A stretch of DNA of 40,058 bases from a virus (lineage: Duplodnaviria > Heunggongvirae > Uroviricota > Caudoviricetes). The stretch lies in the IMG/VR virus record IMGVR_UViG_3300028456_000007. The stretch is one strand, 5' to 3'. The translations under genes were made by a program, and so were the position numbers. Each line of letters opens with the position of its first letter. Positions within the stretch are counted from its first letter, which is position 1. The notes below the pieces were generated by a model. The model searched no databases. It had not been told where the DNA came from and saw nothing but the letters and a program-made list of their open reading frames with translations. Of this stretch, positions 1 through 35,017 are shown one piece after another.

Positions 1-573
1 ATGTTTTGCGAAGAAAAAGTAGCTCAAATGGCTGCATACCTACTTCTTAAGAGAGGTGGGCGCATGGCATATCTGAAATTGATGAAGCTGCTCTATCTGT
101 CTAACCGCCAGTCGATTTTGAAGCATGGCAGGATGATCGGCGAAGATAGCCTTTACTCTATGAAATTTGGACCAGTCATGTCGAATACGCTGAACTTGAT
201 TCGCGGTAAGGCTGAAGGCATTGGTGACTACTGGTACAACTTGATAGAGACGAACGGGCATAATGTATCGTTGCGTTCAGATCCGAGGGAAATGGATGCA
301 GACGAGGTCTTTGATGAATTGAGTCGTGCAGATATCCGGATTTTAGATGAAATCTATTCTCGGTATGGGCATATGAACCGATTTGATCTCGCAAATATGA
401 CGCATTTAGAAAGCGTTTGTCCAGAGTGGCACGATCCTGGCAATTCTCGTAAGCCTATAGACCTGAAAGAAATGCTGATCAGTGAGGGTAAAAGCGAGGA
501 TGAGGCTAATCGCATAATTGGCAAAATGGAAGAATCTCAGAAACTTAAGGAATTTTCTTTGCAATTATCATGA
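1..573 (+). CDS. Panacea/DUF4065-domain protein (SocA/PanA-like putative antitoxin); possibly 5'-partial at window edge
   Basis: ORF begins at window position 1; segment AYLLLKRGG-RMAYLKLMKLLYLS resembles the conserved N-terminal core of DUF4065/Panacea proteins as recalled; stop overlaps next start (ATGA at 570-573). Confidence 0.5.
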   Translation: MFCEEKVAQMAAYLLLKRGGRMAYLKLMKLLYLSNRQSILKHGRMIGEDSLYSMKFGPVMSNTLNLIRGKAEGIGDYWYNLIETNGHNVSLRSDPREMDADEVFDELSRADIRILDEIYSRYGHMNRFDLANMTHLESVCPEWHDPGNSRKPIDLKEMLISEGKSEDEANRIIGKMEESQKLKEFSLQLS

Positions 574-1340: not shown

Positions 1341-2375
1341 ATGCCACTAAAAGCGTCACTTAACGGAAAAGAAATTCATTCTTTTGAATTTAACTCTCAG
1401 GAATGGGAATATCTTAAACAGACATATAAAAGCCAGTCTTTGTTTATGTCGTGCTGTGGTCAGCCTGGTATACCTAAAACAAGCAAACTTAATAACTATT
1501 ACTTTGCACATAAATCCAAAAGCGATTGCCTGTATGCGAAAGAAAGCGCAGAACATTTATATCTCAAATTCTTAATCGCAAAATTAGCCAGTGATGCTGG
1601 CTGGTCAGTTACTACCGAAAAACAAGGGGCGACCCCAGCAGGAGAACAATGGATTGCCGATGTGTTTTGTACCAGAAATAACGCGAAACTGGTTTTCGAA
1701 GTACAGTTATCACCGCAAAAAGACGATGAATTTAAAGAACGTCAAAAACGATATATCGCATCAGGAGTCCGTGCACTGTGGTTGCGAAAGTTACGTAAAG
1801 GAAGTAAAGAGCATGGTGGGAATATATACCATAGCTACGATTTACCTGTTTTTGGTGTGCGTCAGAATGAAAATGGGGACTTGTATCTACCACAGTTTGG
1901 GATTAGTGTCAGGGAGTTTATCGCGGGTGTTTTTGCCAGAAAGCTATTATGGTTCCCAAAGGTTGGGGATGTGCTGACTGCAAAAATAGAATCGCGAGTT
2001 ACAAAATGCTGGAGATGTAAGAAACGAACTGGAATTATCAGAGGTATTTCTGTTTACAGTAAGTCCGTATTCGTCAAGTTTTTATCTTTTCGTGATTCTG
2101 ATGTCAAAGAACTAATAGCCACTCACGTGGATAACAAAAAACTCTGGGCGGCTGGAATTGGTACTGTTAAGGACAGAGACAGTGATTGTTATTTATCTAA
2201 CTGTTGCATACATTGTTATTCGATTATAGGAGATTTCTTTTTATTAGAGGTTTTCGACTATCCGAATGATAAACAAAAGATAATGATAGAATTTACTTTT
2301 AATTATGCTAGCAATATGAAAATCTTATCCAGCGAGTGGGTATTTGATGGTAAAAAAGCTGAAATATTTTTCTGA
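1341..2375 (+). CDS. CoiA-like family protein (predicted PD-(D/E)xK-type nuclease with Cys clusters)
   Basis: 344-aa ORF; CC..YYFAH motif followed by ESAEH..K..E..QWIADV..FEVQLS resembles competence protein CoiA family; extra CWRC...NCCIHC cluster; GGGAGGG SD upstream; clearly AT-rich versus rest of window. Confidence 0.55.
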   Translation: MPLKASLNGKEIHSFEFNSQEWEYLKQTYKSQSLFMSCCGQPGIPKTSKLNNYYFAHKSKSDCLYAKESAEHLYLKFLIAKLASDAGWSVTTEKQGATPAGEQWIADVFCTRNNAKLVFEVQLSPQKDDEFKERQKRYIASGVRALWLRKLRKGSKEHGGNIYHSYDLPVFGVRQNENGDLYLPQFGISVREFIAGVFARKLLWFPKVGDVLTAKIESRVTKCWRCKKRTGIIRGISVYSKSVFVKFLSFRDSDVKELIATHVDNKKLWAAGIGTVKDRDSDCYLSNCCIHCYSIIGDFFLLEVFDYPNDKQKIMIEFTFNYASNMKILSSEWVFDGKKAEIFF

Positions 2376-5545: not shown

Positions 5546-6199
5546 TCAAAAATCCATTATTACTTGTTTGACAAGACCAACTATTCTGCAGTTCTCACCG
5601 CATTCAATAGTTTTATAGTTAGGATTTAGTGGGACGAGATACCTGTTCGGCCAGTCCTCAACAAATTTTTTGAGTGTCGCTTCTTGCCCACCATTGATAT
5701 GGGCAACAACGATTTTTCCGTTAATACACTCTGTATCAATAATATCTGGCTCTACGATAACGATAGAACCTTCTGGTATCGATGGTGAGCCGAGGGGATT
5801 GGTCATTGAATCACCACGGACCCGTAGTGCAAATGCCATTTCTGATACAAGGGCGGTAGTATAAACCCACTCTTCAGCATCTTCTTTCCTGACACCAGGC
5901 TCCGTCATTGTCCATGAACCCGCCTGAACCCACGAGATGAGGGGGACTTTTTTAACTGCGAATATTTCAGGTTTTAGATTTATCTTTGGTTCAGGCGAGC
6001 CTTTTCCGCTAACAAGCCACAGAGGATCGCATTTAAGTGCGTTGGCTAGGGCTTGAAGGTTGGCTCCATTTGGTTGGTAGTCGTCCTTTTCCCATCCAGT
6101 AACCGTGACACGGTTCACACCAGTCAAATCAGCCAGTGCTTGTTGTGTCAGGTTCAGTTCTTTTCGCCTTTGGCGAATACGATCACTCATGTTCATCAT
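5546..6199 (-). CDS. CI-like phage repressor (N-terminal HTH, C-terminal LexA/S24 peptidase-like autocleavage domain)
   Basis: HTH segment LTQQALADLTGVNRVTVTGWE; C-terminal VRGDSM ... KIVVAHINGGQEATLKKF typical of S24 family; start ambiguous among ATGs 6199/6196/6190 (ORF track 6223). Confidence 0.85.
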   Translation of the reverse strand: MMNMSDRIRQRRKELNLTQQALADLTGVNRVTVTGWEKDDYQPNGANLQALANALKCDPLWLVSGKGSPEPKINLKPEIFAVKKVPLISWVQAGSWTMTEPGVRKEDAEEWVYTTALVSEMAFALRVRGDSMTNPLGSPSIPEGSIVIVEPDIIDTECINGKIVVAHINGGQEATLKKFVEDWPNRYLVPLNPNYKTIECGENCRIVGLVKQVIMDF

Positions 6200-6263
6200 G
6201 TAGGCAATCCTACCACATGCCAATGTAGGATTCTTGACATTGACATGTTGGATATCCTACATT
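6198..6263 (+). promoter_or_regulatory. OR operator cluster with PR-like promoter
   Basis: three sites with palindromic core GT(A/T)GGATATCC(A/T)AC: 6200..6213, 6225..6238 (half-site), 6247..6260; TTGACA 6234..6239 - 18 bp - TACATT 6258..6263; cro ATG at 6295. Confidence 0.55.
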
Positions 6264-6519: not shown

Positions 6520-7098
6520 GTGGGTAAAGAACCTGAATGGAAAGTTGATAAACAACCAGCATGGCTGGTGGCAGCAATACGAAGAACGATTGCTGATTTA
6601 CCTCATGGCTATGAGGAAGCAGCAGAAATTCTTGGTTTGTATAAATCTGATGATATCACCCCAGCAAAAGATCAATTGCATAACAGACTGCGTAGCGGTG
6701 GGGATCAAATTTTTCCACTTGAGTGGGCCATGGTTTTACAGGATGCCAGTGGTACCAGGCATGTAACAGATGCAATAGCCCGTCGTAGTAATGGGGTGTT
6801 TGTGCCGCTGGTGGTCATTGATGACATTGACAATGGTGACATTAATCAGCGGCTGATGGAGTCAATAGAATGGATTGGCAAGCATTCCCAGTACTTACGC
6901 AAGGCAACTGCTGATGGAGTTATTGACCAGGCTGAGCGTGAGCAAATCGAAGAGAACAGCTACCAAGTAATGGCGAAGTGGCAGGAGCATTTAACACTGT
7001 TATTTCGTGTTTTTTGTGCGCCGGAAAAGAGTAACGCCCGCGAGTGTGCAGCTCCGGGCGTCGTGGCGTTTTGTGTCTGTGGAGAAACTAACGCATGA
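6520..7098 (+). CDS. hypothetical early-right protein (possibly CII-like regulator)
   Basis: 192-aa ORF directly after cro; family assignment uncertain. Confidence 0.35.
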   Translation: MGKEPEWKVDKQPAWLVAAIRRTIADLPHGYEEAAEILGLYKSDDITPAKDQLHNRLRSGGDQIFPLEWAMVLQDASGTRHVTDAIARRSNGVFVPLVVIDDIDNGDINQRLMESIEWIGKHSQYLRKATADGVIDQAEREQIEENSYQVMAKWQEHLTLLFRVFCAPEKSNARECAAPGVVAFCVCGETNA

Positions 7099-8246
7099 AC
7101 AGTTTAACGGCAAATAACCGTTTGTCGCAACAGCTGGTGGTCAGCGTCGCTGAACACCTGTTGTTACGGCATGAATGCAGATTACCAAATCACCTGGCTG
7201 TAAGTAACCACAGAGAACTTTACCTGACTGTGGGGGGCGAGTTGTGCAGGAACTTAACCGCTGGTTTCGTGACGGAAGAGGGCTTTATGTCCATGTTATT
7301 CGTTGGGAGCCAGAAACACAGCGCGTTATCTATCTTCGCAAAGACTACCCGCATGAGTGCTTTAGTCCTTTGTGGAAATTCAGGCGTGATTTTGTTGAGT
7401 GTGAAGGACCACCAGCACATTGATTCTGCCATTCCGGGACGTTACACTGTTCAGGCACCTTATAAAGCGGGTGCCGGGCGTGGAAACCCGGAATTCACCA
7501 AAGCGCACAACCGCGCTCTTGCGGTTTTTTTGTGTCATGAGCAGCATTACGCCCAAATTATGGTGGGGCGTGCAGGGCCAACTTCGGTTGGGCCGGGTTC
7601 TTTGGTGACCGGTATTTCCACCCCTGTACGTCTCACCACCAATAAGGTCGTGGAAAGCCTTGGTGGTGAGTTATTTAAAATCACCAAAGAGGCTGCCATC
7701 ATGGCTACGATCCCAACCCTCACTCAACCTGAAATTGCCATCGTTGATGGTCAGGCTGTTACTTCATCCCTGGCTGTTGCCAACTTCTTCTCCAAACGTC
7801 ATGACGATGTACTGAAAAAGATCCGCACGCTTGAATGCTCCGCATCATTCACTGCCCGCAATTTTTCGGTGAGTGATTACACCGATTGCACAGGCCGCAA
7901 ACTACCTTGCTATCAAATAACCCGCGACGGCTTTGCGTTTCTTGCTATGGGTTTCACGGGTAAACGTGCTGCCCAGTTCAAAGAGGCATACATCAATGCC
8001 TTTAACCAGATGGAGAAACAGCTTTCAAGGCCCGCTGTACCGAGCGACGTTGCACATAACGCCAGCGTTCTCTGTTCCTACATTTCATCAATTCATCAGG
8101 TCTGGCTGCAGCAGCTTTATCCTATGTTGGCAAAAGCCGAATCTCCGCTGGCTGTTAGCTTATATGACTATATTAATGATGCTTCGGCGCTGGCCTGCCT
8201 CATAAATTTGTCGCTGAACCCTTCAGAGGTAAGGGGGCGCAAATGA
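7095..8246 (+). CDS. Rha-family phage regulatory protein (Rha-like domain in C-terminal half; alternative start ATG 7701)
   Basis: ATGA coupling to upstream gene at 7095; Rha-like segment IAIVDGQAVTSSLAVANFF...YQITRDGFAFLAMGFTGKRA; AAGAGG SD before ATG 7701; no in-frame stop between 7095 and 8246. Confidence 0.5.
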   Translation: MNSLTANNRLSQQLVVSVAEHLLLRHECRLPNHLAVSNHRELYLTVGGELCRNLTAGFVTEEGFMSMLFVGSQKHSALSIFAKTTRMSALVLCGNSGVILLSVKDHQHIDSAIPGRYTVQAPYKAGAGRGNPEFTKAHNRALAVFLCHEQHYAQIMVGRAGPTSVGPGSLVTGISTPVRLTTNKVVESLGGELFKITKEAAIMATIPTLTQPEIAIVDGQAVTSSLAVANFFSKRHDDVLKKIRTLECSASFTARNFSVSDYTDCTGRKLPCYQITRDGFAFLAMGFTGKRAAQFKEAYINAFNQMEKQLSRPAVPSDVAHNASVLCSYISSIHQVWLQQLYPMLAKAESPLAVSLYDYINDASALACLINLSLNPSEVRGRK

Positions 8247-8467
8247 TCCGGAATATTTTCAAACGTTTTACCAATCAGACTTTCCGTTGTCCTCGTCCGG
8301 GTCAGTGGTACACCACGCCTGCAGGGCATGTTCTACGTGTTAGCCTGGTTGACCGTGAATGTCAGAAGGTGGTTTGTGAACCGCTGGGCCGTAATTACCG
8401 CGTCAGTATGCCGCTTATAGCCTTTCGCTCCAGAAAAAACATGAAGCATCTCGGAGGTGCAGCATGA
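8243..8467 (+). CDS. hypothetical protein
   Basis: 74-aa ORF with ATGA coupling to upstream and downstream genes. Confidence 0.4.
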   Translation: MIRNIFKRFTNQTFRCPRPGQWYTTPAGHVLRVSLVDRECQKVVCEPLGRNYRVSMPLIAFRSRKNMKHLGGAA

Positions 8468-9282
8468 GTATGGAGCTGATGGTTAAAGCGATGAAAATTC
8501 GAGTGGGTAATCCATTGCGAAAACTGGTTCTGATCAAGCTGGCTGATAATGCCAGCGATCAGGGTGAGTGCTGGCCCAGCTACCAGCATATTGCTGACCA
8601 GTGCGAGATTAGCAAACGTTCTGTGATGAATCATATTGCGGCCCTTTGTGATTCCGGGCTGGTAAAAAAAGTCACCCGGAAAGGTGAAAAAGGTAACTCA
8701 AGTAATATCTATCTCCTTCATCTTGATGGTGCAGGAGATTCACTAGGGGGTAGTGCAAATAATTCACTATCTGGTGCAGCAAATTCACCAGGTAGTGCAG
8801 GAGTTGCACCAGGGGGTGGTGCAGGAGATTCACCCAGAACCAGTCACTCTTTTGAACCAGTCAAAGAACCAGTCAATGAACCAATAGCTGTTGGTGCATC
8901 TGCTGATGAGTCCGTGCGAGTTCGTTCAAACCGACCGGAATACTCTCCGGAGTTTGAGCAGGCATGGCTGGCATACCCCAAACGTGCTGGTGGCAATTCA
9001 AAATCTGCAGCCTTCAAAGCCTGGAAAGCCCGTTTGAATGAGGGGGTAAAACCCGAAACCATGCTGGAAGGTGTGAAACGCTACGCGGGCTGGGTATCTG
9101 CGATGGGTAACAGCGGCACACAATTTGTGAAACAGGCTGTCACGTTCTTTGGTCCGGATCGTCATTTCGAAGAATCCTGGGAAGTTCCTGCGGTATCTGC
9201 AGCCAGACGCGAGGACCCGTACTTCAAAGCCAGTTACGACAACGTGGACTACAGCCAGATCCCGGCAGGATTCAGGGGGTGA
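8464..9282 (+). CDS. replication initiation protein (N-terminal winged-helix domain, O-like)
   Basis: N-terminal LRKLVLIKLADNASDQGECWPSYQHIADQCEISKRSVMNHIAAL resembles phage replication-protein HTH domains; Gly/Ser linker encoded by iteron-like repeats. Confidence 0.5.
   Translation: MSMELMVKAMKIRVGNPLRKLVLIKLADNASDQGECWPSYQHIADQCEISKRSVMNHIAALCDSGLVKKVTRKGEKGNSSNIYLLHLDGAGDSLGGSANNSLSGAANSPGSAGVAPGGGAGDSPRTSHSFEPVKEPVNEPIAVGASADESVRVRSNRPEYSPEFEQAWLAYPKRAGGNSKSAAFKAWKARLNEGVKPETMLEGVKRYAGWVSAMGNSGTQFVKQAVTFFGPDRHFEESWEVPAVSAARREDPYFKASYDNVDYSQIPAGFRG
8728..8875. repeat. iteron-like direct repeats inside replication gene (candidate ori)
   Basis: five 16-bp near-palindromic units (GGTGCAGGAGATTCAC type) at 8728, 8752, 8773, 8794, 8818 with 21-24 bp spacing, then three perfect GAACCAGTCA copies at 8837, 8854, 8866. 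Confidence 0.45.
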
Positions 9283-9284
9283 TC

Positions 9285-9773
9285 ATGAGTCTTTTGAATG
9301 AAGTTCAGAAATTCATTGAAGCCCATCCGGGGTGTACTTCCGGAGACATTGCGGATGCTTTTGCAGGTTACTCACGGCAGCGCGTTCTGCAGTCAGCAAG
9401 CAAGTTACGTCAGAGTGGGCGTGTGGCTCACCGTTGTGAAGGGGATACACGCAGACATTTCCCGCGCCTGACTGAGAGAGCGCAGGAGCCGGAACCACAA
9501 CCAGTTCGTGAAACCAGACCTGTGCGCAATTTCTATGTCGGCACTAACGATCCCCGGGTGATTTTGTGCCTGACCCGCCAGGCGGAAGAACTGGAGTCCA
9601 GGGGCTTATACCGTCGTGCTGCAACGGTGTGGATGGCGGCATTCCGTGAAAGCCACTCCCAGCCAGAACGAAACAATTTTCTGGCGCGTCGTGAGCAGTG
9701 TTTACGGAAAAGCAGCAAGCGCGCTGTATCGGGTGATGAGTGGTATCTGTCAGGGAATTACGTGGGGGCTTAA
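9285..9773 (+). CDS. PerC/Pch-like transcriptional regulator family protein with N-terminal extension
   Basis: C-terminal AEELESRGLYRRAATVWMAAF ... ARREQCLRK matches PerC-family pattern as recalled; ATG 9285 after GTG 9279. Confidence 0.45.
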   Translation: MSLLNEVQKFIEAHPGCTSGDIADAFAGYSRQRVLQSASKLRQSGRVAHRCEGDTRRHFPRLTERAQEPEPQPVRETRPVRNFYVGTNDPRVILCLTRQAEELESRGLYRRAATVWMAAFRESHSQPERNNFLARREQCLRKSSKRAVSGDEWYLSGNYVGA

Positions 9774-10426
9774 TGAGTAATAAATATTGCCAGGCGCTGG
9801 TGGAGCTGCGGAATAAACCAGCCCATGAACTGAAGGAAGTGGGCGATCAGTGGCGCACGCCGGATAACATTTTCTGGGGAATTAACACCCTGTTTGGCCC
9901 GTTTGTTCTGGATCTGTTCACTGATGGTGATAACGCCAAATGTGCCGCTTATTACACTGCGGAAGACAACGCGCTGGCGCATGACTGGTCTGAACGTCTT
10001 GCGGAGCTTAAAGGTGCTGCCTTTGGTAATCCCCCGTACAGCCGCGCCAGTCAGCATGAAGGGCAATACATCACCGGCATGCGTTACATCATGAAGCATG
10101 CCAGTGCCATGCGTGATAAGGGCGGACGCTATGTTTTCCTGATCAAAGCTGCCACCAGCGAAGTGTGGTGGCCGGAAGATGCAGATCATATTGCTTTTAT
10201 TCGCGGGCGTATTGGTTTTGAACTGCCTGCCTGGTTTATCCCGAAGGACGAGAAGCAGGTGCCGACAGGCGCTTTCTTCGCTGGTGCTATTGCTGTTTTC
10301 GACAAGACCTGGAAGGGACCGGCAATCAGCTACATCGGGCGCGATGAACTTGAGGCATGTGGTGAGGCGTTTCTGGCGCAGGTTCGCCAGCAGGCAGAAA
10401 AACTGGTCAGGGAGATGGCGGCATGA
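9773..10426 (+). CDS. phage DNA N6-adenine methyltransferase (Dam-like)
   Basis: NPPY motif (FGNPPYS) and WRTPDNIFWGINTLFGPFVLD N-terminal pattern; ATG 9773 overlaps upstream stop. Confidence 0.8.
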   Translation: MSNKYCQALVELRNKPAHELKEVGDQWRTPDNIFWGINTLFGPFVLDLFTDGDNAKCAAYYTAEDNALAHDWSERLAELKGAAFGNPPYSRASQHEGQYITGMRYIMKHASAMRDKGGRYVFLIKAATSEVWWPEDADHIAFIRGRIGFELPAWFIPKDEKQVPTGAFFAGAIAVFDKTWKGPAISYIGRDELEACGEAFLAQVRQQAEKLVREMAA

Positions 10427-10749
10427 CGACGTTAACTCAATGCCAGCAGCAGGTGCTGGATATGCTGATTTCTTATCAGAAAGAACGTGGCTTCCCGCCA
10501 ACCAATCAGGAGGTGGCAACCATGCTGGGATACCGTTCGGTGAATGCAGCGGTGGAGCATCTTCGCGCACTGGAGAAAAAAGGCGTCATCACGATAAAGC
10601 GTGGCGTGGCCCGGGGGATAACGCTTCATACCGCGGTGAAGGACGACGACAGCGAGGCGGTCGGGATTATCCGCGCACTGCTTGCCGGTGAGGAAAACGC
10701 CAGGCTGCGTGCAACCCACTGGTTACATGAGAGGGACCTGAAAGTATGA
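10423..10749 (+). CDS. LexA N-terminal DNA-binding-domain homolog lacking S24 peptidase domain
   Basis: LTQCQQQVLDMLISYQKERGFPPTNQEVATMLGYRSVNAAVEHLRALEKKGVI aligns closely with LexA residues ~1-70 (winged HTH); only 108 aa, no Ser/Lys peptidase region. Confidence 0.6.
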   Translation: MTTLTQCQQQVLDMLISYQKERGFPPTNQEVATMLGYRSVNAAVEHLRALEKKGVITIKRGVARGITLHTAVKDDDSEAVGIIRALLAGEENARLRATHWLHERDLKV

Positions 10750-12974: not shown

Positions 12975-13727
12975 ATGAACCTTGAAGCCTTACCGAAATA
13001 TTACTCCCCGAAATCTCCAAAACTGAGCGATGACGCACCGGCGACAGGCTCTGGTGGTTTAACAATTACGGATGTGATGGCTGCGCAGGGGATGGTGCAG
13101 TCGAAAGCACCGCTTGGGTTTGCCTTATTCCTGGCAAAAGTTGGTGTTCAGGATCCTCAGTTTGCGATTGAAGGTCTGCTCAATTACGCGATGGCACTGG
13201 ATAACCCGACATTGAATAAATTGAGTGAAGAAACCCGGCTACAGATCATTCCTTACCTTGTGAATTTTGCCTTTGCTGATTATTCCAGGTCTGCGGCAAG
13301 TAAGGCTCGCTGTGAGCATTGTGCTGGTACTGGATTTCATAATGTATTGCGCGAAGTGGTGAAACACTCCAGAAGCGGGGAATCTGTTATCAAGGAAGAG
13401 TGGGTGAAGGAACTATGTCAGCATTGTCATGGTAAGGGAGAAGTCAGCACAGCGTGTAGAGGGTGTAAGGGGAAAGGTATTGTACTGGATGAAAAAAGAA
13501 CCCGGCTTCATGGTGCGCCTGTTTATAAGATTTGTGGGCGTTGCAATGGAAACCGGTTTAGCCGTTTACCAACCACACTGGCGCGGCATCATGTCCAGAA
13601 GCTGGTACCGGACCTGACGGATTATCAGTGGTACAAAGGATATGCAGATGTCATTGATAAACTGGTTACAAAGTGCTGGCAGGAAGAAGCATATGCAGAG
13701 ACACAATTGAGAAAAGTGACAAGATAA
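12975..13727 (+). CDS. Q-like late gene antiterminator (zinc-finger type)
   Basis: CEHCAGTG...CQHCHGKG...CRGCKGKG...CGRCNG zinc-binding repeats; position just upstream of a short terminated leader and lysis genes. Confidence 0.65.
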   Translation: MNLEALPKYYSPKSPKLSDDAPATGSGGLTITDVMAAQGMVQSKAPLGFALFLAKVGVQDPQFAIEGLLNYAMALDNPTLNKLSEETRLQIIPYLVNFAFADYSRSAASKARCEHCAGTGFHNVLREVVKHSRSGESVIKEEWVKELCQHCHGKGEVSTACRGCKGKGIVLDEKRTRLHGAPVYKICGRCNGNRFSRLPTTLARHHVQKLVPDLTDYQWYKGYADVIDKLVTKCWQEEAYAETQLRKVTR

Positions 13728-34264: not shown

Positions 34265-35017
34265 ATGCATCGTATAGACACGAAAACCGCGCAGAAGGAT
34301 AAGTTCGGCGCGGGTAAGAACGGTTTTACCCGTGGTAACCCCCAGACCGGCACGCCTGCCACCGATCTGGATGATGACTACTTTGATATGTTGCAGGAAG
34401 AACTCTGCAGCGTGGTGGAGGCATCCGGTGCCAGCCTGGAGAAGGCGCGGCACGACCAGTTGCTTACCGCGCTTCGTGCGCTGCTGTTAAGCCGCAAGAA
34501 TCCGTTTGGCGATATCAAATCGGATGGCACTGTGCAAACGGCTCTCGAAAACCTTGGTTTGGGAGAAGGCTCTGCATTACCCGTAGGTGTGCCTGTCCCG
34601 TGGCCTTTATCCACAACGCCAACAGGCTGGCTGAAATGCAACGGTGCGTCTTTTTCTGCTGAAGAATACCCGGAACTGGCAAAGGCTTATCCGACAAATA
34701 AATTGCCTGATTTACGTGGTGAGTTTATTCGTGGCTGGGATGACGGGCGCGGTGTCGATAGCGGTCGCGCGCTTCTTTCTGCCCAAGGCGATGCTATTCG
34801 AAACATTACCGGGCGTGTAGATAATGCGCTAACAAGTGCTCCAACTATTTATCATGGAGCTATGCAATATCAAGGCGCCAGCTCTGTAACAATGGCTGAA
34901 GGCGGTAAGGTTGTATCCGCAATGAATATTTCTTTTGATGCTTCACGTGTTGTTTCGACAGCTTCTGAGAACCGCCCCCGCAACATTGCATTTAATTTCA
35001 TGGTAAGGGCTAAATAA
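34265..35017 (+). CDS. tail fibre protein, constant N-terminal part fused to currently expressed variable C-terminal part
   Basis: N-terminus [21 protein letters not shown] resembles Mu S-type fibre; crossover site falls at residues ~97-101 (LGLGE). Confidence 0.8.
34542..34567. other. hix/gix-like recombination site (left, inside tail fibre gene)
   Basis: CTCTCGAAAACC-TT-GGTTTGGGAGAA; compare recalled hixL TTCTTGAAAACC-AA-GGTTTTTGATAA. Confidence 0.6.

What the first reader, a model, noticed from the sequence alone, without database searches (positions are those of the whole stretch)
8728..8875. Iteron-like repeats embedded in the replication protein gene (candidate ori)
Five 16-bp near-palindromic repeats spaced 21-24 bp apart encode a Gly/Ser-rich linker, followed by three perfect GAACCAGTCA copies. 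Lambda-type phages place ori iterons inside the O gene, so these repeats are probably the origin bound by this protein's N-terminal domain.
Basis: partly seen in the sequence, partly recalled or inferred. Interest (0 to 1): 0.5.

Follow-up and report, generated by a model that had tools for sequence, protein, structure and literature searches.

The report
Phage replication origin inside initiator gene
The repeats are real DNA-level signals: five palindromic binding-site-like units plus a short, unusually conserved motif, which most likely form the replication origin of a very common prophage family and lie inside the gene for the protein that should bind them.

Summary
Five dyad repeats (core GTGCA-N5-TKCAC, 19 bp with flanks) start at 8729, 8753, 8774, 8795 and 8819, and occur nowhere else in the 40 kb. 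GAACCAGTCA follows at 8837, 8854 and 8866. All lie in gene 8464..9282 (SfV orf39-like), which has a Pfam HTH_36 winged-helix N-domain, a predicted disordered linker and a helical C-domain.

About 90 diverse homologues from Gammaproteobacteria share one layout:
- 1-9 dyad repeats spaced 21-24 bp, often in two or three reading frames.
- Repeat arms that change with the recognition helix.
- A last repeat that starts 17-19 nt before GAAYC of a ~35-nt block, AGAAYCAGTMAC-TCTYYT-GAAYCAGTCA-AW-GAAYC.

The block shows 5 synonymous against 125 non-synonymous variants. The N-domain in the same loci shows 1099 against 358. The block is therefore constrained as nucleic acid, not as peptide.

Protein low complexity is rejected. 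The best reading is a lambda-like origin inside the initiator gene, in a different initiator family. The window encodes no helicase, loader or primase. The conserved block is probably the unwinding or helicase-entry element. Nothing has been tested experimentally. I found no description of this origin in the papers I could read.

The parts
8464..9282 (+). Replication initiator gene (272 aa; SfV orf39 / ST64B sb42 type; PGAP name 'helix-turn-helix domain-containing protein'). It contains the candidate origin.
   Evidence: ORF. Pfam HTH_36 2.8e-11 and DnaD_N 8e-5. PHROG 270 'replication initiation protein' 1.5e-88. 98-99% DNA identity to mEp460, SfV and Stx2c phages, annotated there as replication protein.
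8464..8727 (+). Coding sequence of the N-terminal winged-helix domain (aa 1-88), the presumed iteron-binding domain. The recognition helix is around aa 49-62 (ISKRSVMNHIAALC).
   Evidence: AF2 model: H3-11, H17-28, H40-47, H51-63, E67-73, E79-85, with pLDDT 77-90. Foldseek gives only weak (E about 1e-2) matches, to winged-helix proteins including the DnaD N-domain and the N-terminal domain of a DNA-binding protein (4pql; related entry 4pt7, 'Structure of initiator'). The helix sequence co-varies with the repeat arms.
8727..8745 (.). Iteron 1, TGGTGCAGGAGATTCACTA
8751..8769 (.). Iteron 2, TAGTGCAAATAATTCACTA
8772..8790 (.). Iteron 3, TGGTGCAGCAAATTCACCA
8793..8811 (.). Iteron 4, TAGTGCAGGAGTTGCACCA (both arms symmetric: GTGCA/TGCAC)
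   Evidence: matches the pattern on both strands
8817..8835 (.). Iteron 5, TGGTGCAGGAGATTCACCC. It abuts the conserved block at the family-wide fixed distance.
   Evidence: The distance from the last repeat to GAAYC is 17-19 nt in 55 of 77 loci.
8836..8870 (+). Family-wide conserved block AGAACCAGTCAC-TCTTTT-GAACCAGTCA-AA-GAACC. This is the candidate unwinding / helicase-entry element of the origin.
   Evidence: About 2 bits per position over ~38 nt in 79 unique sequences, dropping to ~0.2 bits immediately after, and a local A+T maximum of 61%. 5 synonymous vs 125 non-synonymous variants, against 1099 vs 358 in the N-domain. Found only behind this N-domain.
8866..8887 (+). Lineage-specific extra 12-bp unit GAACCAGTCAAT plus the degenerate unit GAACCAATAG. 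The tandem copy number is polymorphic among close relatives.
   Evidence: TRF reports period 12, 2.5 copies. Alignment of close relatives shows +/-12 bp indels exactly here, giving 1, 2 or 3 tandem units.
8734..8931 (+). Coding sequence of the predicted disordered interdomain linker (aa 91-156). It holds the iterons and the block.
   Evidence: AF2 pLDDT 30-48 for residues 91-156.
8932..9279 (+). Coding sequence of the C-terminal domain (helices at aa 162-214). It is an exchangeable module, presumed to recruit the replicative helicase.
   Evidence: PHROG matches to C-terminal parts of 'replication initiation protein', 'DnaD-like helicase loader' and 'primosomal protein' families. The same C-domain is found on initiators with other N-domains. 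Recombinant P0064 is joined at the block.
6234..6263 (+). pR-like promoter of the early-right operon (cro, cII-like, Ash/Rha, orf, initiator). Transcription from here would run through the origin.
   Evidence: TTGACA-18-TACATT, 10 of 12. The genes follow one another with overlapping stop/start codons.

Best explanation
Window 8727..8887 is the origin of replication of this SfV/mEp460-type lambdoid prophage. It lies inside the linker-coding part of its own initiator gene (8464..9282).

Proposed mechanism:
1. Dimers of the N-terminal winged-helix domain bind the five 19-bp dyad-symmetric iterons. The iterons are phased about two helical turns apart (24, 21, 21, 24 bp).
2. The resulting nucleoprotein complex destabilises the adjoining ~35-nt block and its 12-bp repeats (GAACCAGTCAAW), which are the locally most A+T-rich DNA.
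3. The block's strict sequence conservation suggests it is read sequence-specifically, most likely as one DNA strand by the near-invariant part of the initiator. Plasmid winged-helix Rep proteins read their DUE 13-mers in this way.
4. The exchangeable C-terminal domain then brings in the replicative helicase. In this window that must be the host helicase, because no phage helicase, loader or primase is encoded.
5. Rightward transcription from the pR-like promoter crosses the site.

Shown here: the repeats, their geometry, their DNA-level (not peptide-level) nature, their co-variation with the recognition helix, the nucleic-acid constraint on the block, and the domain architecture.

Inferred: binding, unwinding, helicase recruitment and origin activity.
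For: - Repeats are real and unique to this site.
- The gene is an HTH_36 / PHROG 'replication initiation protein' in the early-right operon.
- 12 phage homologues and 80 species-level genomic homologues (Pseudomonas, Aeromonas, Shewanella, Marinomonas, Xenorhabdus, Vibrio, Enterobacterales and others) keep repeats at the same gene position. Spacings are dominated by 21-24 bp, typically 23, 22, 21, 24. The last repeat sits a fixed 17-19 nt before GAAYC.
- The automated count puts the repeats in two or more reading frames in 47 of 77 loci. Six loci checked by hand each have one repeat copy in a second frame, giving unrelated peptides.
- Within a gene all copies share arms; between genes the arms differ and track the recognition helix. 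SKRSVMNHI goes with GTGCA..MRHI goes with GTGAC in four backgrounds; SRSTVKSHI with GGGCA; SKSAV.. with TGCC.
- Close relatives differ only in iteron number (1, 2, 5, 7, 8 or 9) and in 12-mer number (1-3).
- Recombinant P0064 carries the phi24B-type N-domain together with phi24B-type iterons, joined at the block to the SfV-type C-domain.
- Block: ~2 bits per position, a local A+T maximum, and synonymous variation about 40-fold lower than in the N-domain, with a reversed synonymous/non-synonymous ratio.
- The block is found only behind this N-domain: 112 of 120 matches, the rest being contig ends or a broken frame.
- The repeats and block lie in a predicted disordered linker.
- No helicase, loader or primase is encoded in the window.
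- Precedents: lambda, P27 and 933W O proteins bind iterons inside the O gene and also bind ssDNA of the adjacent region (PMC7466680). Winged-helix Rep proteins bind DUE repeats strand- and sequence-specifically, and those repeats are needed for origin activity (PMC4081077).
Against: - There is no experimental evidence of binding, unwinding or origin activity for any member of this family in the papers I could read. One Stx-phage survey says nothing is known about replication proteins of non-lambdoid 'Eru' phages (PMC8951638).
- Co-variation of helix and iterons is partly confounded by physical linkage and shared ancestry.
- The block is only moderately A+T-rich (61%). In this window the lowest-G+C stretch (37%, 8660-8739) lies to the left of the iterons, so unwinding could start there.
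- What reads the block is unknown.
- The helicase-recruiting role of the C-domain rests on PHROG family names only. There is no Pfam or PDB match.
Confidence: 0.78

Rival explanations
1. The repeats are only a by-product of a low-complexity Gly/Ser/Ala/Pro linker. Peptide repeats would have arisen by duplication, with no cis-acting DNA function.
For: In this window all five repeats are in one frame and encode G/S-A-G/N-D/N-S-L/P-like heptapeptides. The region is predicted disordered. Copy number varies as expected for slippage-prone repeats.
Against: - In homologues the same 19-mer is read in different frames within one gene, for example SAAGSP and VQQIHQ.
- The units are dyad-symmetric and helically phased, which peptides do not require.
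- Linker peptides differ completely between homologues (G/S/A-rich, P/S/D-rich, E/K/S-rich) while the DNA geometry is kept.
- GAACCAGTCA copies 1 and 2 are in different frames.
- Synonymous sites in the block are frozen.
Confidence: 0.03
2. The dyad repeats are binding sites for the protein, but they serve regulation (autorepression of the operon, titration or handcuffing, or exclusion of related phages) rather than initiation. The true origin would lie elsewhere.
For: Iterons in plasmids also act in copy control. Cloned lambda ori/iteron DNA inhibits related phages (PMC3349717 and PMC4488673, seen). Nothing here shows unwinding.
Against: - No other repeat cluster or A+T-rich candidate with initiator-type features was seen in the early region.
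- The fixed juxtaposition with a conserved A+T-richer repeat block mirrors origin architecture, not operator architecture.
- The site is inside the gene, far downstream of the promoter.
Confidence: 0.1
3. The conserved block is kept because it encodes a short linear peptide motif, P-R-T-S-H-S-F-E-P-V-x-E-P (for example a docking site for a host replication protein), not because of the DNA.
For: The peptide is recognisable in most homologues. It lies in a disordered linker, where such motifs are typical.
Against: - The variation seen is almost all non-synonymous: T/I, H/N/Q, F/S/L/P, P/S (125 events). Synonymous changes are nearly absent (5 events). This is the reverse of the N-domain pattern.
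- Rare codons such as AGA persist even in G+C-rich Pseudomonas prophages.
- Variants with changed spacing keep the 10-mer, not the peptide (L153, L162).
Confidence: 0.05
4. The block is a module-boundary 'joint' kept similar by frequent homologous exchange between phages that swap C-domain/helicase modules, without a role in initiation.
For: N-domain-plus-iteron modules are found joined to different C-domains exactly at the block (P0064; phi24B, SI8, Vibrio phages). Conservation ends abruptly after it.
Against: Exchange needs pre-existing identity and cannot by itself hold about 35 nt nearly invariant from Pseudomonas to Vibrio to E. coli phages. The fixed distance to the last iteron and the internal 10-mer repeat structure point to a function. 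Recombination at the block is better seen as a consequence of its conservation.
Confidence: 0.06

Closest known systems
Phage lambda ori-lambda inside gene O, and its relatives in Stx phages 933W and P27
   Same: - The origin lies in the part of the initiator gene that encodes the linker between a DNA-binding N-domain and a helicase-recruiting C-domain.
- It has several ~19-bp dyad-symmetric iterons.
- It is followed on the same side by an A+T-richer region.
- Iteron number varies between relatives: 4 in lambda, 6 in Stx phages, adding residues to the protein (PMC7466680).
- It lies in the pR operon.
   Different: - The initiator N-domain is Pfam HTH_36, not Phage_rep_O. BLASTP against P22 gp18, a Phage_rep_O protein, shows no similarity.
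- No P/loader or helicase gene follows.
- The region right of the iterons is not a plain A+T-rich tract. It is a sequence-conserved repeat block shared by phages of many genera.
Phage P22 ori inside gene 18 (annotated rep_origin, NC_002371 32840-32984)
   Same: The iteron array lies inside the initiator gene and is followed by A-rich ~12-bp units. Its last iteron contains GAATCAGTCAAA, identical to a variant of the 12-mer found here.
   Different: Gene 18 is a Phage_rep_O protein and is followed by a DnaB-type helicase gene. The P22 iterons are TTTACCGAWTCGGTAAA. The shared 12-mer may be coincidental, because the P22 iteron consensus already matches it at 8 of 10 positions.
Iteron plasmid origins (RK2 oriV/TrfA, F/RepE and similar) with repeated 13-mers in the DUE
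   Same: A winged-helix initiator binds iterons. Next to them lie short repeated sequence elements whose exact sequence is needed because the Rep protein binds one unwound strand specifically (PMC4081077). This is the best available model for the conserved GAAYCAGTCA repeats.
   Different: Plasmid iterons are direct repeats bound by monomers and lie outside the rep gene. Those origins usually also use DnaA boxes, and none occurs here. Here the iterons are palindromes, so dimers are expected, and they lie inside the gene.
DnaD / phage 'replisome organizer' type primosomal proteins
   Same: There is a weak Pfam DnaD_N match (8e-5, below the cut-off), a weak Foldseek match (E about 0.02) to the DnaD N-domain, and PHROG 'DnaD-like helicase loader' matches for the C-part.
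   Different: The Pfam score is below the gathering threshold. There is no significant PDB sequence match. Any functional equivalence is untested.

Membership tests
Lambda-type origin (ori inside the O gene, lambda O / Phage_rep_O initiator) | The origin lies within the initiator's own coding sequence, in the interdomain linker. | tested here: met
   The repeats at 8727-8887 lie inside ORF 8464..9282, in residues 88-141. The model is disordered for residues 91-156.
Lambda-type origin (ori inside the O gene, lambda O / Phage_rep_O initiator) | An array of about 4 or more dyad-symmetric ~19-bp iterons. | tested here: met
   Five 19-bp imperfect palindromes, spaced 24, 21, 21 and 24 bp. The same geometry is seen in about 90 homologues.
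Lambda-type origin (ori inside the O gene, lambda O / Phage_rep_O initiator) | An A+T-rich unwinding region directly beside the iterons. | tested here: inconclusive
   The block is the local A+T maximum (61% against 38-48%) across the family. It is not strongly A+T-rich, and in this window 8660-8739, left of the iterons, is lower in G+C.
Lambda-type origin (ori inside the O gene, lambda O / Phage_rep_O initiator) | The initiator N-domain belongs to Pfam Phage_rep_O (homology to lambda O). | tested here: not met
   Pfam gives HTH_36 and no Phage_rep_O match. P22 gp18 does match Phage_rep_O (6.9e-38) and shows no BLASTP similarity to this protein.
Lambda-type origin (ori inside the O gene, lambda O / Phage_rep_O initiator) | A partner gene for a helicase loader or helicase (P, DnaC-like, DnaB-like) lies next to the initiator. 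| tested here: not met
   The downstream genes are PerC-like, Dam, LexA-DBD, RusA, KilA-N, DUF968 and Q. No helicase, loader or primase is encoded anywhere in the window. Some relatives do have such genes.
Lambda-type origin (ori inside the O gene, lambda O / Phage_rep_O initiator) | The initiator binds the iterons and the fragment supports replication. | not testable with these tools
   This needs EMSA or footprinting and an ori-plasmid or marker-frequency assay.
Pfam HTH_36 / PHROG 270 'replication initiation protein' family (SfV orf39, ST64B sb42, phi24B 'O') | Sequence match to the family models above threshold. | tested here: met
   HTH_36 scores 43.5 bits against a cut-off of 25. PHROG 270 matches at 1.5e-88. 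The protein is 98.5% identical to SfV orf39.
Origin architecture of the HTH_36 initiator family, as defined here | Dyad repeats spaced 21-24 bp, the last one ending 2-3 nt (start 17-19 nt) before AGAAYCAGTMAC-TCTYYT-GAAYCAGTCA. | tested here: met
   In the window, iteron 5 ends at 8835 and the block starts at 8836 with zero mismatches to the consensus.
Iteron-type plasmid origin (Rep of the RepA/RepE/TrfA type) | Direct-repeat iterons outside the rep gene, DnaA box(es) and DUE 13-mers. | tested here: not met
   The repeats are palindromic and intragenic. There is no DnaA box within 25 kb (the only TTATCCACA is at 34607). Only the feature 'repeated short elements beside the iterons' is shared.

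The most novel reading that the evidence does not exclude
The ~35-nt block AGAAYCAGTMAC-TCTYYT-GAAYCAGTCA-AW-GAAYC would be a previously unrecognised, sequence-specific origin-opening element. It would be read, probably as single-stranded DNA, by the near-invariant first ~48 residues of the HTH_36 initiator. It would be conserved from Pseudomonas to Vibrio to E. coli prophages whatever helicase, loader or primase the phage uses. This would be a phage counterpart of DnaA-trios or plasmid DUE 13-mers. It would also explain why initiator-specificity modules and helicase-recruitment modules recombine exactly at this point.
Probability: 0.35. Interest if true: 0.65.

Novelty: new variant of a known kind. 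Interest (0 to 1): 0.5.

Why it matters
- Prevalence: this initiator gene is present (at least 80% coverage) in 897 of 5426 complete E. coli genomes. Relatives occur in prophages of many Gammaproteobacteria, including Stx-converting and serotype-converting phages. Yet it is annotated only as a 'helix-turn-helix domain-containing protein', and its origin is not annotated.
- Testable origin: a defined origin (iterons plus a conserved opening element) gives a direct starting point for studying how 'initiator-only' phages take over the host helicase.
- Specificity: it could explain replication specificity and incompatibility among co-resident prophages, because each recognition helix has its own iteron arms.
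- Stx phages: it offers a handle on replication-dependent toxin production in non-lambdoid Stx phages.
- Annotation: it suggests a simple DNA signature for marking such origins.
- Method: the reversed synonymous/non-synonymous pattern is a clear example of a cis-element overriding coding constraints.

Tried and rejected
- RNA element: Rfam gave only a chance miRNA hit (22 bits against a gathering score of 84). Folding of 8720-8890 is not unusual (z = -0.97).
- DnaA boxes: none near the site. The single TTATCCACA is at 34607, and the count is below chance expectation.
- Internal promoter or terminator at the repeats: none found.
- Inverted copy of the 10-mer at 8523-8532 (ACTGGTTCTG): the codons there are not conserved at synonymous sites in homologues, so I treat it as chance.
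- Solved structures: no significant sequence match, either with the single sequence or with the profile. Foldseek gave only generic winged-helix hits at E about 1e-2.
- Pfam and NCBIfam for the C-domain: nothing significant. One NCBIfam call failed because of a frame error and was not repeated.
- First viral-contig protein scan: it returned only near-identical E. coli prophages and added no diversity.
- Literature:
  - The SfV genome paper (PMC134923) is not held.
  - The Eru-type Stx-phage papers do not describe an origin for HTH_36 proteins.
  - A text search for GAACCAGTCA found only unrelated primers.
  - The Pf-5 paper's iterons concern an unrelated genomic island.
  - Weigel & Seitz 2006 (FEMS Microbiol Rev), which I recall classifying 'initiator-solo' phage modules, could not be read. 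Prior mention of these repeats there or in the SfV and ST64B papers cannot be excluded.
- Link to the P22 origin: the shared GAATCAGTCAAA is real, but it is part of P22's last iteron and may be coincidence.
Full report
**1. Observation.**
- The core GTGCA-N5-T(T/G)CAC starts at 8729, 8753, 8774, 8795 and 8819, with spacing 24, 21, 21 and 24 bp.
- With two flanking bases on each side, each unit is a 19-bp imperfect palindrome, T(A/G)GTGCA-N5-TKCAC(C/T)(A/C).
- Across the 40 kb the pattern (up to 1 mismatch) gives 12 matches against 3.3 expected; no shuffle reaches 12. All exact copies lie here.
- GAACCAGTCA occurs exactly three times, at 8837, 8854 and 8866, and only here.
- The 17-bp step between copies 1 and 2 puts them in different reading frames: R-T-S-H against E-P-V.
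- Everything lies inside ORF 8464..9282.

**2. Context.**
The window is a lambdoid prophage. The region is 98-99% identical to phages mEp460, SfV, 1720a-02 and several Stx2-converting phages. In those records the gene is called replication protein, 'O', primosomal protein I, or just HTH protein.
- The gene order is cI-like repressor (5546..6223, minus strand), a pR-like promoter (6234-6263), cro, a cII-like gene, an Ash/Rha protein, a small ORF, and then this gene.
- Downstream follow PerC-like, Dam, LexA-DBD-only, RusA, KilA-N, DUF968 and Q genes.
- No helicase, helicase loader or primase is encoded anywhere in the window. This is an 'initiator-only' replication module.
- The protein has a Pfam HTH_36 N-domain (2.8e-11) with a sub-threshold DnaD_N match. 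It matches PHROG 270 'replication initiation protein' (1.5e-88).
- An AlphaFold model places a confident winged-helix domain at residues 1-88, a disordered stretch at 91-156 and a small helical C-domain at 162-214. The repeats (residues 88-141) therefore sit in the interdomain linker.

**3. The repeats are DNA elements, not peptide repeats.**
I collected 12 diverse phage homologues. I also collected 80 homologues from one-genome-per-species bacterial assemblies, found with an N-domain-only profile so that the search was blind to the repeats. The 80 come from Pseudomonas, Aeromonas, Shewanella, Marinomonas, Xenorhabdus, Proteus, Providencia, Aliivibrio, Halomonas-like bacteria, Cardiobacteriaceae and others.
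- Nearly all intact genes have 3-6 dyad repeats at the same gene position.
- Spacings are dominated by 21, 22, 23 and 24 bp, typically 23, 22, 21, 24.
- Because 22 and 23 are not multiples of three, the automated count finds the same 19-mer in two or more frames within one gene in 47 of 77 loci.
- Six loci checked by hand each have one repeat copy in a second frame. In L099 the unit TAGTGCAGCAG.TTCACC. is translated as SAAGSP in one copy and VQQIHQ in another.
- Linker peptides differ completely between homologues while the DNA geometry is kept.

This rejects the low-complexity explanation.

**4. Specificity.**
Within a gene all copies share the same arms. Between genes the arms differ and follow the recognition helix:
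- SKRSVMNHI goes with GTGCA (E. coli, Salmonella, Pseudomonas).
- ..MRHI goes with GTGAC in four different backgrounds (Erwinia/Izhakiella, Vibrio, Psychrobacter).
- SRSTVKSHI goes with GGGCA (phi24B 'O', SI8).
- SKSAV.. goes with TGCC-type arms.
- DRSTVRKHI goes with TGTAGGCC-type sites.

Close relatives of the window protein differ only in the number of iteron-encoded heptapeptides: 1, 2, 5, 7, 8 or 9 (242-302 aa). One natural recombinant (P0064) carries the phi24B-type N-domain together with phi24B-type iterons, fused to the SfV-type C-domain. Lambdoid origins show the same behaviour: the DNA-binding domain and its iterons form one specificity module. Physical linkage contributes to this co-variation, so it is supportive rather than decisive.

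**5. The GAACCAGTCA copies belong to an exceptionally conserved block.**
Directly after the last iteron, every family member has AGAAYCAGTMAC-TCTYYT-GAAYCAGTCA-AW-GAAYC. The last iteron starts 17-19 nt before GAAYC in 55 of 77 loci. A few Shewanella and Aliivibrio loci keep two or three copies of the 10-mer with other spacings.
- In 79 unique sequences the block carries about 2 bits per position over ~38 nt. Conservation falls to background immediately afterwards, where the C-domains diverge.
- The block is also the local A+T maximum, 61% against 38-48%.
- In a codon alignment of 12 divergent homologues, conserved residues of the N-domain share codons in only 15-70% of pairs. Block codons are identical in nearly all pairs.
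- Over 51 unique blocks, codons 0-11 show 5 synonymous and 125 non-synonymous variants. The first 48 N-domain codons of the same loci show 1099 synonymous and 358 non-synonymous.
- The tolerated changes are pyrimidine swaps that alter the peptide (T/I, P/S, F/S/L/P) but keep the DNA motif.
- An exact-pattern scan of viral contigs found the block only behind this N-domain: 112 of 120 matches, the rest being contig ends or a broken frame.
- The block is independent of C-domain type and of the neighbouring helicase, loader or primase genes.

In the window the third GAACCAGTCA is a lineage-specific extra 12-bp unit. Close relatives have one, two or three tandem units.

**6. Mechanism proposed.**
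Shown here:
- the anatomy of the repeats and the block;
- their DNA-level constraint;
- the co-variation of repeat arms with the recognition helix;
- the domain layout of the protein;
- the absence of phage helicase genes.

Inferred:
- Winged-helix dimers bind the five iterons, which are phased about two helical turns apart.
- The complex opens the adjoining block and its 12-mers.
- The block's sequence is read specifically, most plausibly as one strand by the near-invariant part of the initiator. Plasmid winged-helix Rep proteins do this with their DUE 13-mers (PMC4081077). Lambda-type O proteins also bind ssDNA beside their iterons (PMC7466680).
- The C-domain recruits the host helicase.
- Transcription from the pR-like promoter crosses the site.

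Weak points:
- The block is only moderately A+T-rich.
- In this window 8660-8739, left of the iterons, is lower in G+C.

**7. Comparison with known systems.**
The architecture is that of ori-lambda inside gene O. The initiator, however, is not a Phage_rep_O protein, and no loader gene follows. The plain A+T-rich tract of lambda is replaced by a sequence-conserved repeat block. So it works like a lambda-type origin but is not a member of that family by homology.

P22's annotated origin (a Phage_rep_O initiator) has GAATCAGTCAAA in its last iteron. I regard this as possibly coincidental. Initiators that share the C-domain but have other N-domains carry their own repeats, followed by other A-rich 12-bp tandem units. 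This hints at a general 'iterons plus 12-mers' theme.

**8. Novelty and limits.**
I found no description of this origin or of the block in the papers I could read.
- Surveys of Stx-phage replication regions list HTH_36 proteins and state that nothing is known about their role in replication (PMC8951638).
- The SfV and ST64B genome papers and the 2006 review of phage replication modules could not be read, so an earlier mention of the repeats cannot be excluded.
- The gene is present in 897 of 5426 complete E. coli genomes under a generic name.

**Verdict.** I class it as a new variant of a known kind, of moderate interest. The most interesting open point is what reads the conserved block.

Noticed in passing
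L301 1341-1485 (phage P22, NC_002371 32840-32984): The last iteron of P22's annotated origin reads TTTACC-GAATCAGTCAAA-CACAAAAGAC. It therefore contains the same 12-mer as the block of the HTH_36 family, here read in a third frame (P-N-Q-S-N). It is kept in nearly all of the 80 P22-like loci fetched; two distinct variants lack it. The P22 iteron consensus already matches the motif at 8 of 10 positions, so this may be coincidence.
   Followed up: partly
L177 1151-1195 (Stx1_14040); L179 904-939 (phage 606R7): Initiators that share the window protein's C-domain but have different N-domains lack the block. They have their own repeats followed by other A-rich 12-bp tandem units (CAGAGAATACAA x3, ACAGATAAAGAT x3). 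'Iterons plus A-rich 12-mers' may be a general layout of in-gene phage origins.
   Followed up: partly
window 7095..8246: This 383-aa ORF fuses an Ash domain (PF10554) and a Rha domain (PF09669). The PHROG match covers only residues 61-383, so the real start may be further downstream. A terminator-like hairpin with a T-run lies inside it at 7509-7526.
   Followed up: no
window 10423..10749: A 108-aa protein consisting only of a LexA DNA-binding domain, with no S24 peptidase domain. It is encoded between the Dam methylase and RusA genes.
   Followed up: no
window 1..573 and 1341..2375: A SocA/Panacea antitoxin-domain protein and a CoiA-like nuclease-domain protein lie at the left end of the window. 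They may be accessory or defence cargo of the prophage.
   Followed up: no
window 9279..9773 and 9740..10426: The PerC-family gene (yfdN-like) directly follows the initiator gene, with overlapping stop and start codons, and overlaps the start of the phage Dam methylase gene. There are no GATC sites within the origin region 8700-8900.
   Followed up: no
proteins P0001, P0002, P0020, P0030, P0042, P0037: Near-identical E. coli/Shigella alleles of the initiator carry 1 to 9 iteron units. One allele (P0037) has lost the last iteron and the whole block and is probably a defective prophage copy. This natural allelic series could be used to test how many iterons are needed.
   Followed up: partly
L252 (IMG/VR contig IMGVR_UViG_2880183892_000004): The conserved block is present but the upstream reading frame is broken. 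The iteron region is read in another frame and no N-domain lies in frame. This may be a pseudogene or an assembly error.
   Followed up: no
window 12975..13727: The Q antiterminator homologue also matches the DnaJ-type CXXCXGXG zinc-finger model, just below that model's cut-off.
   Followed up: no
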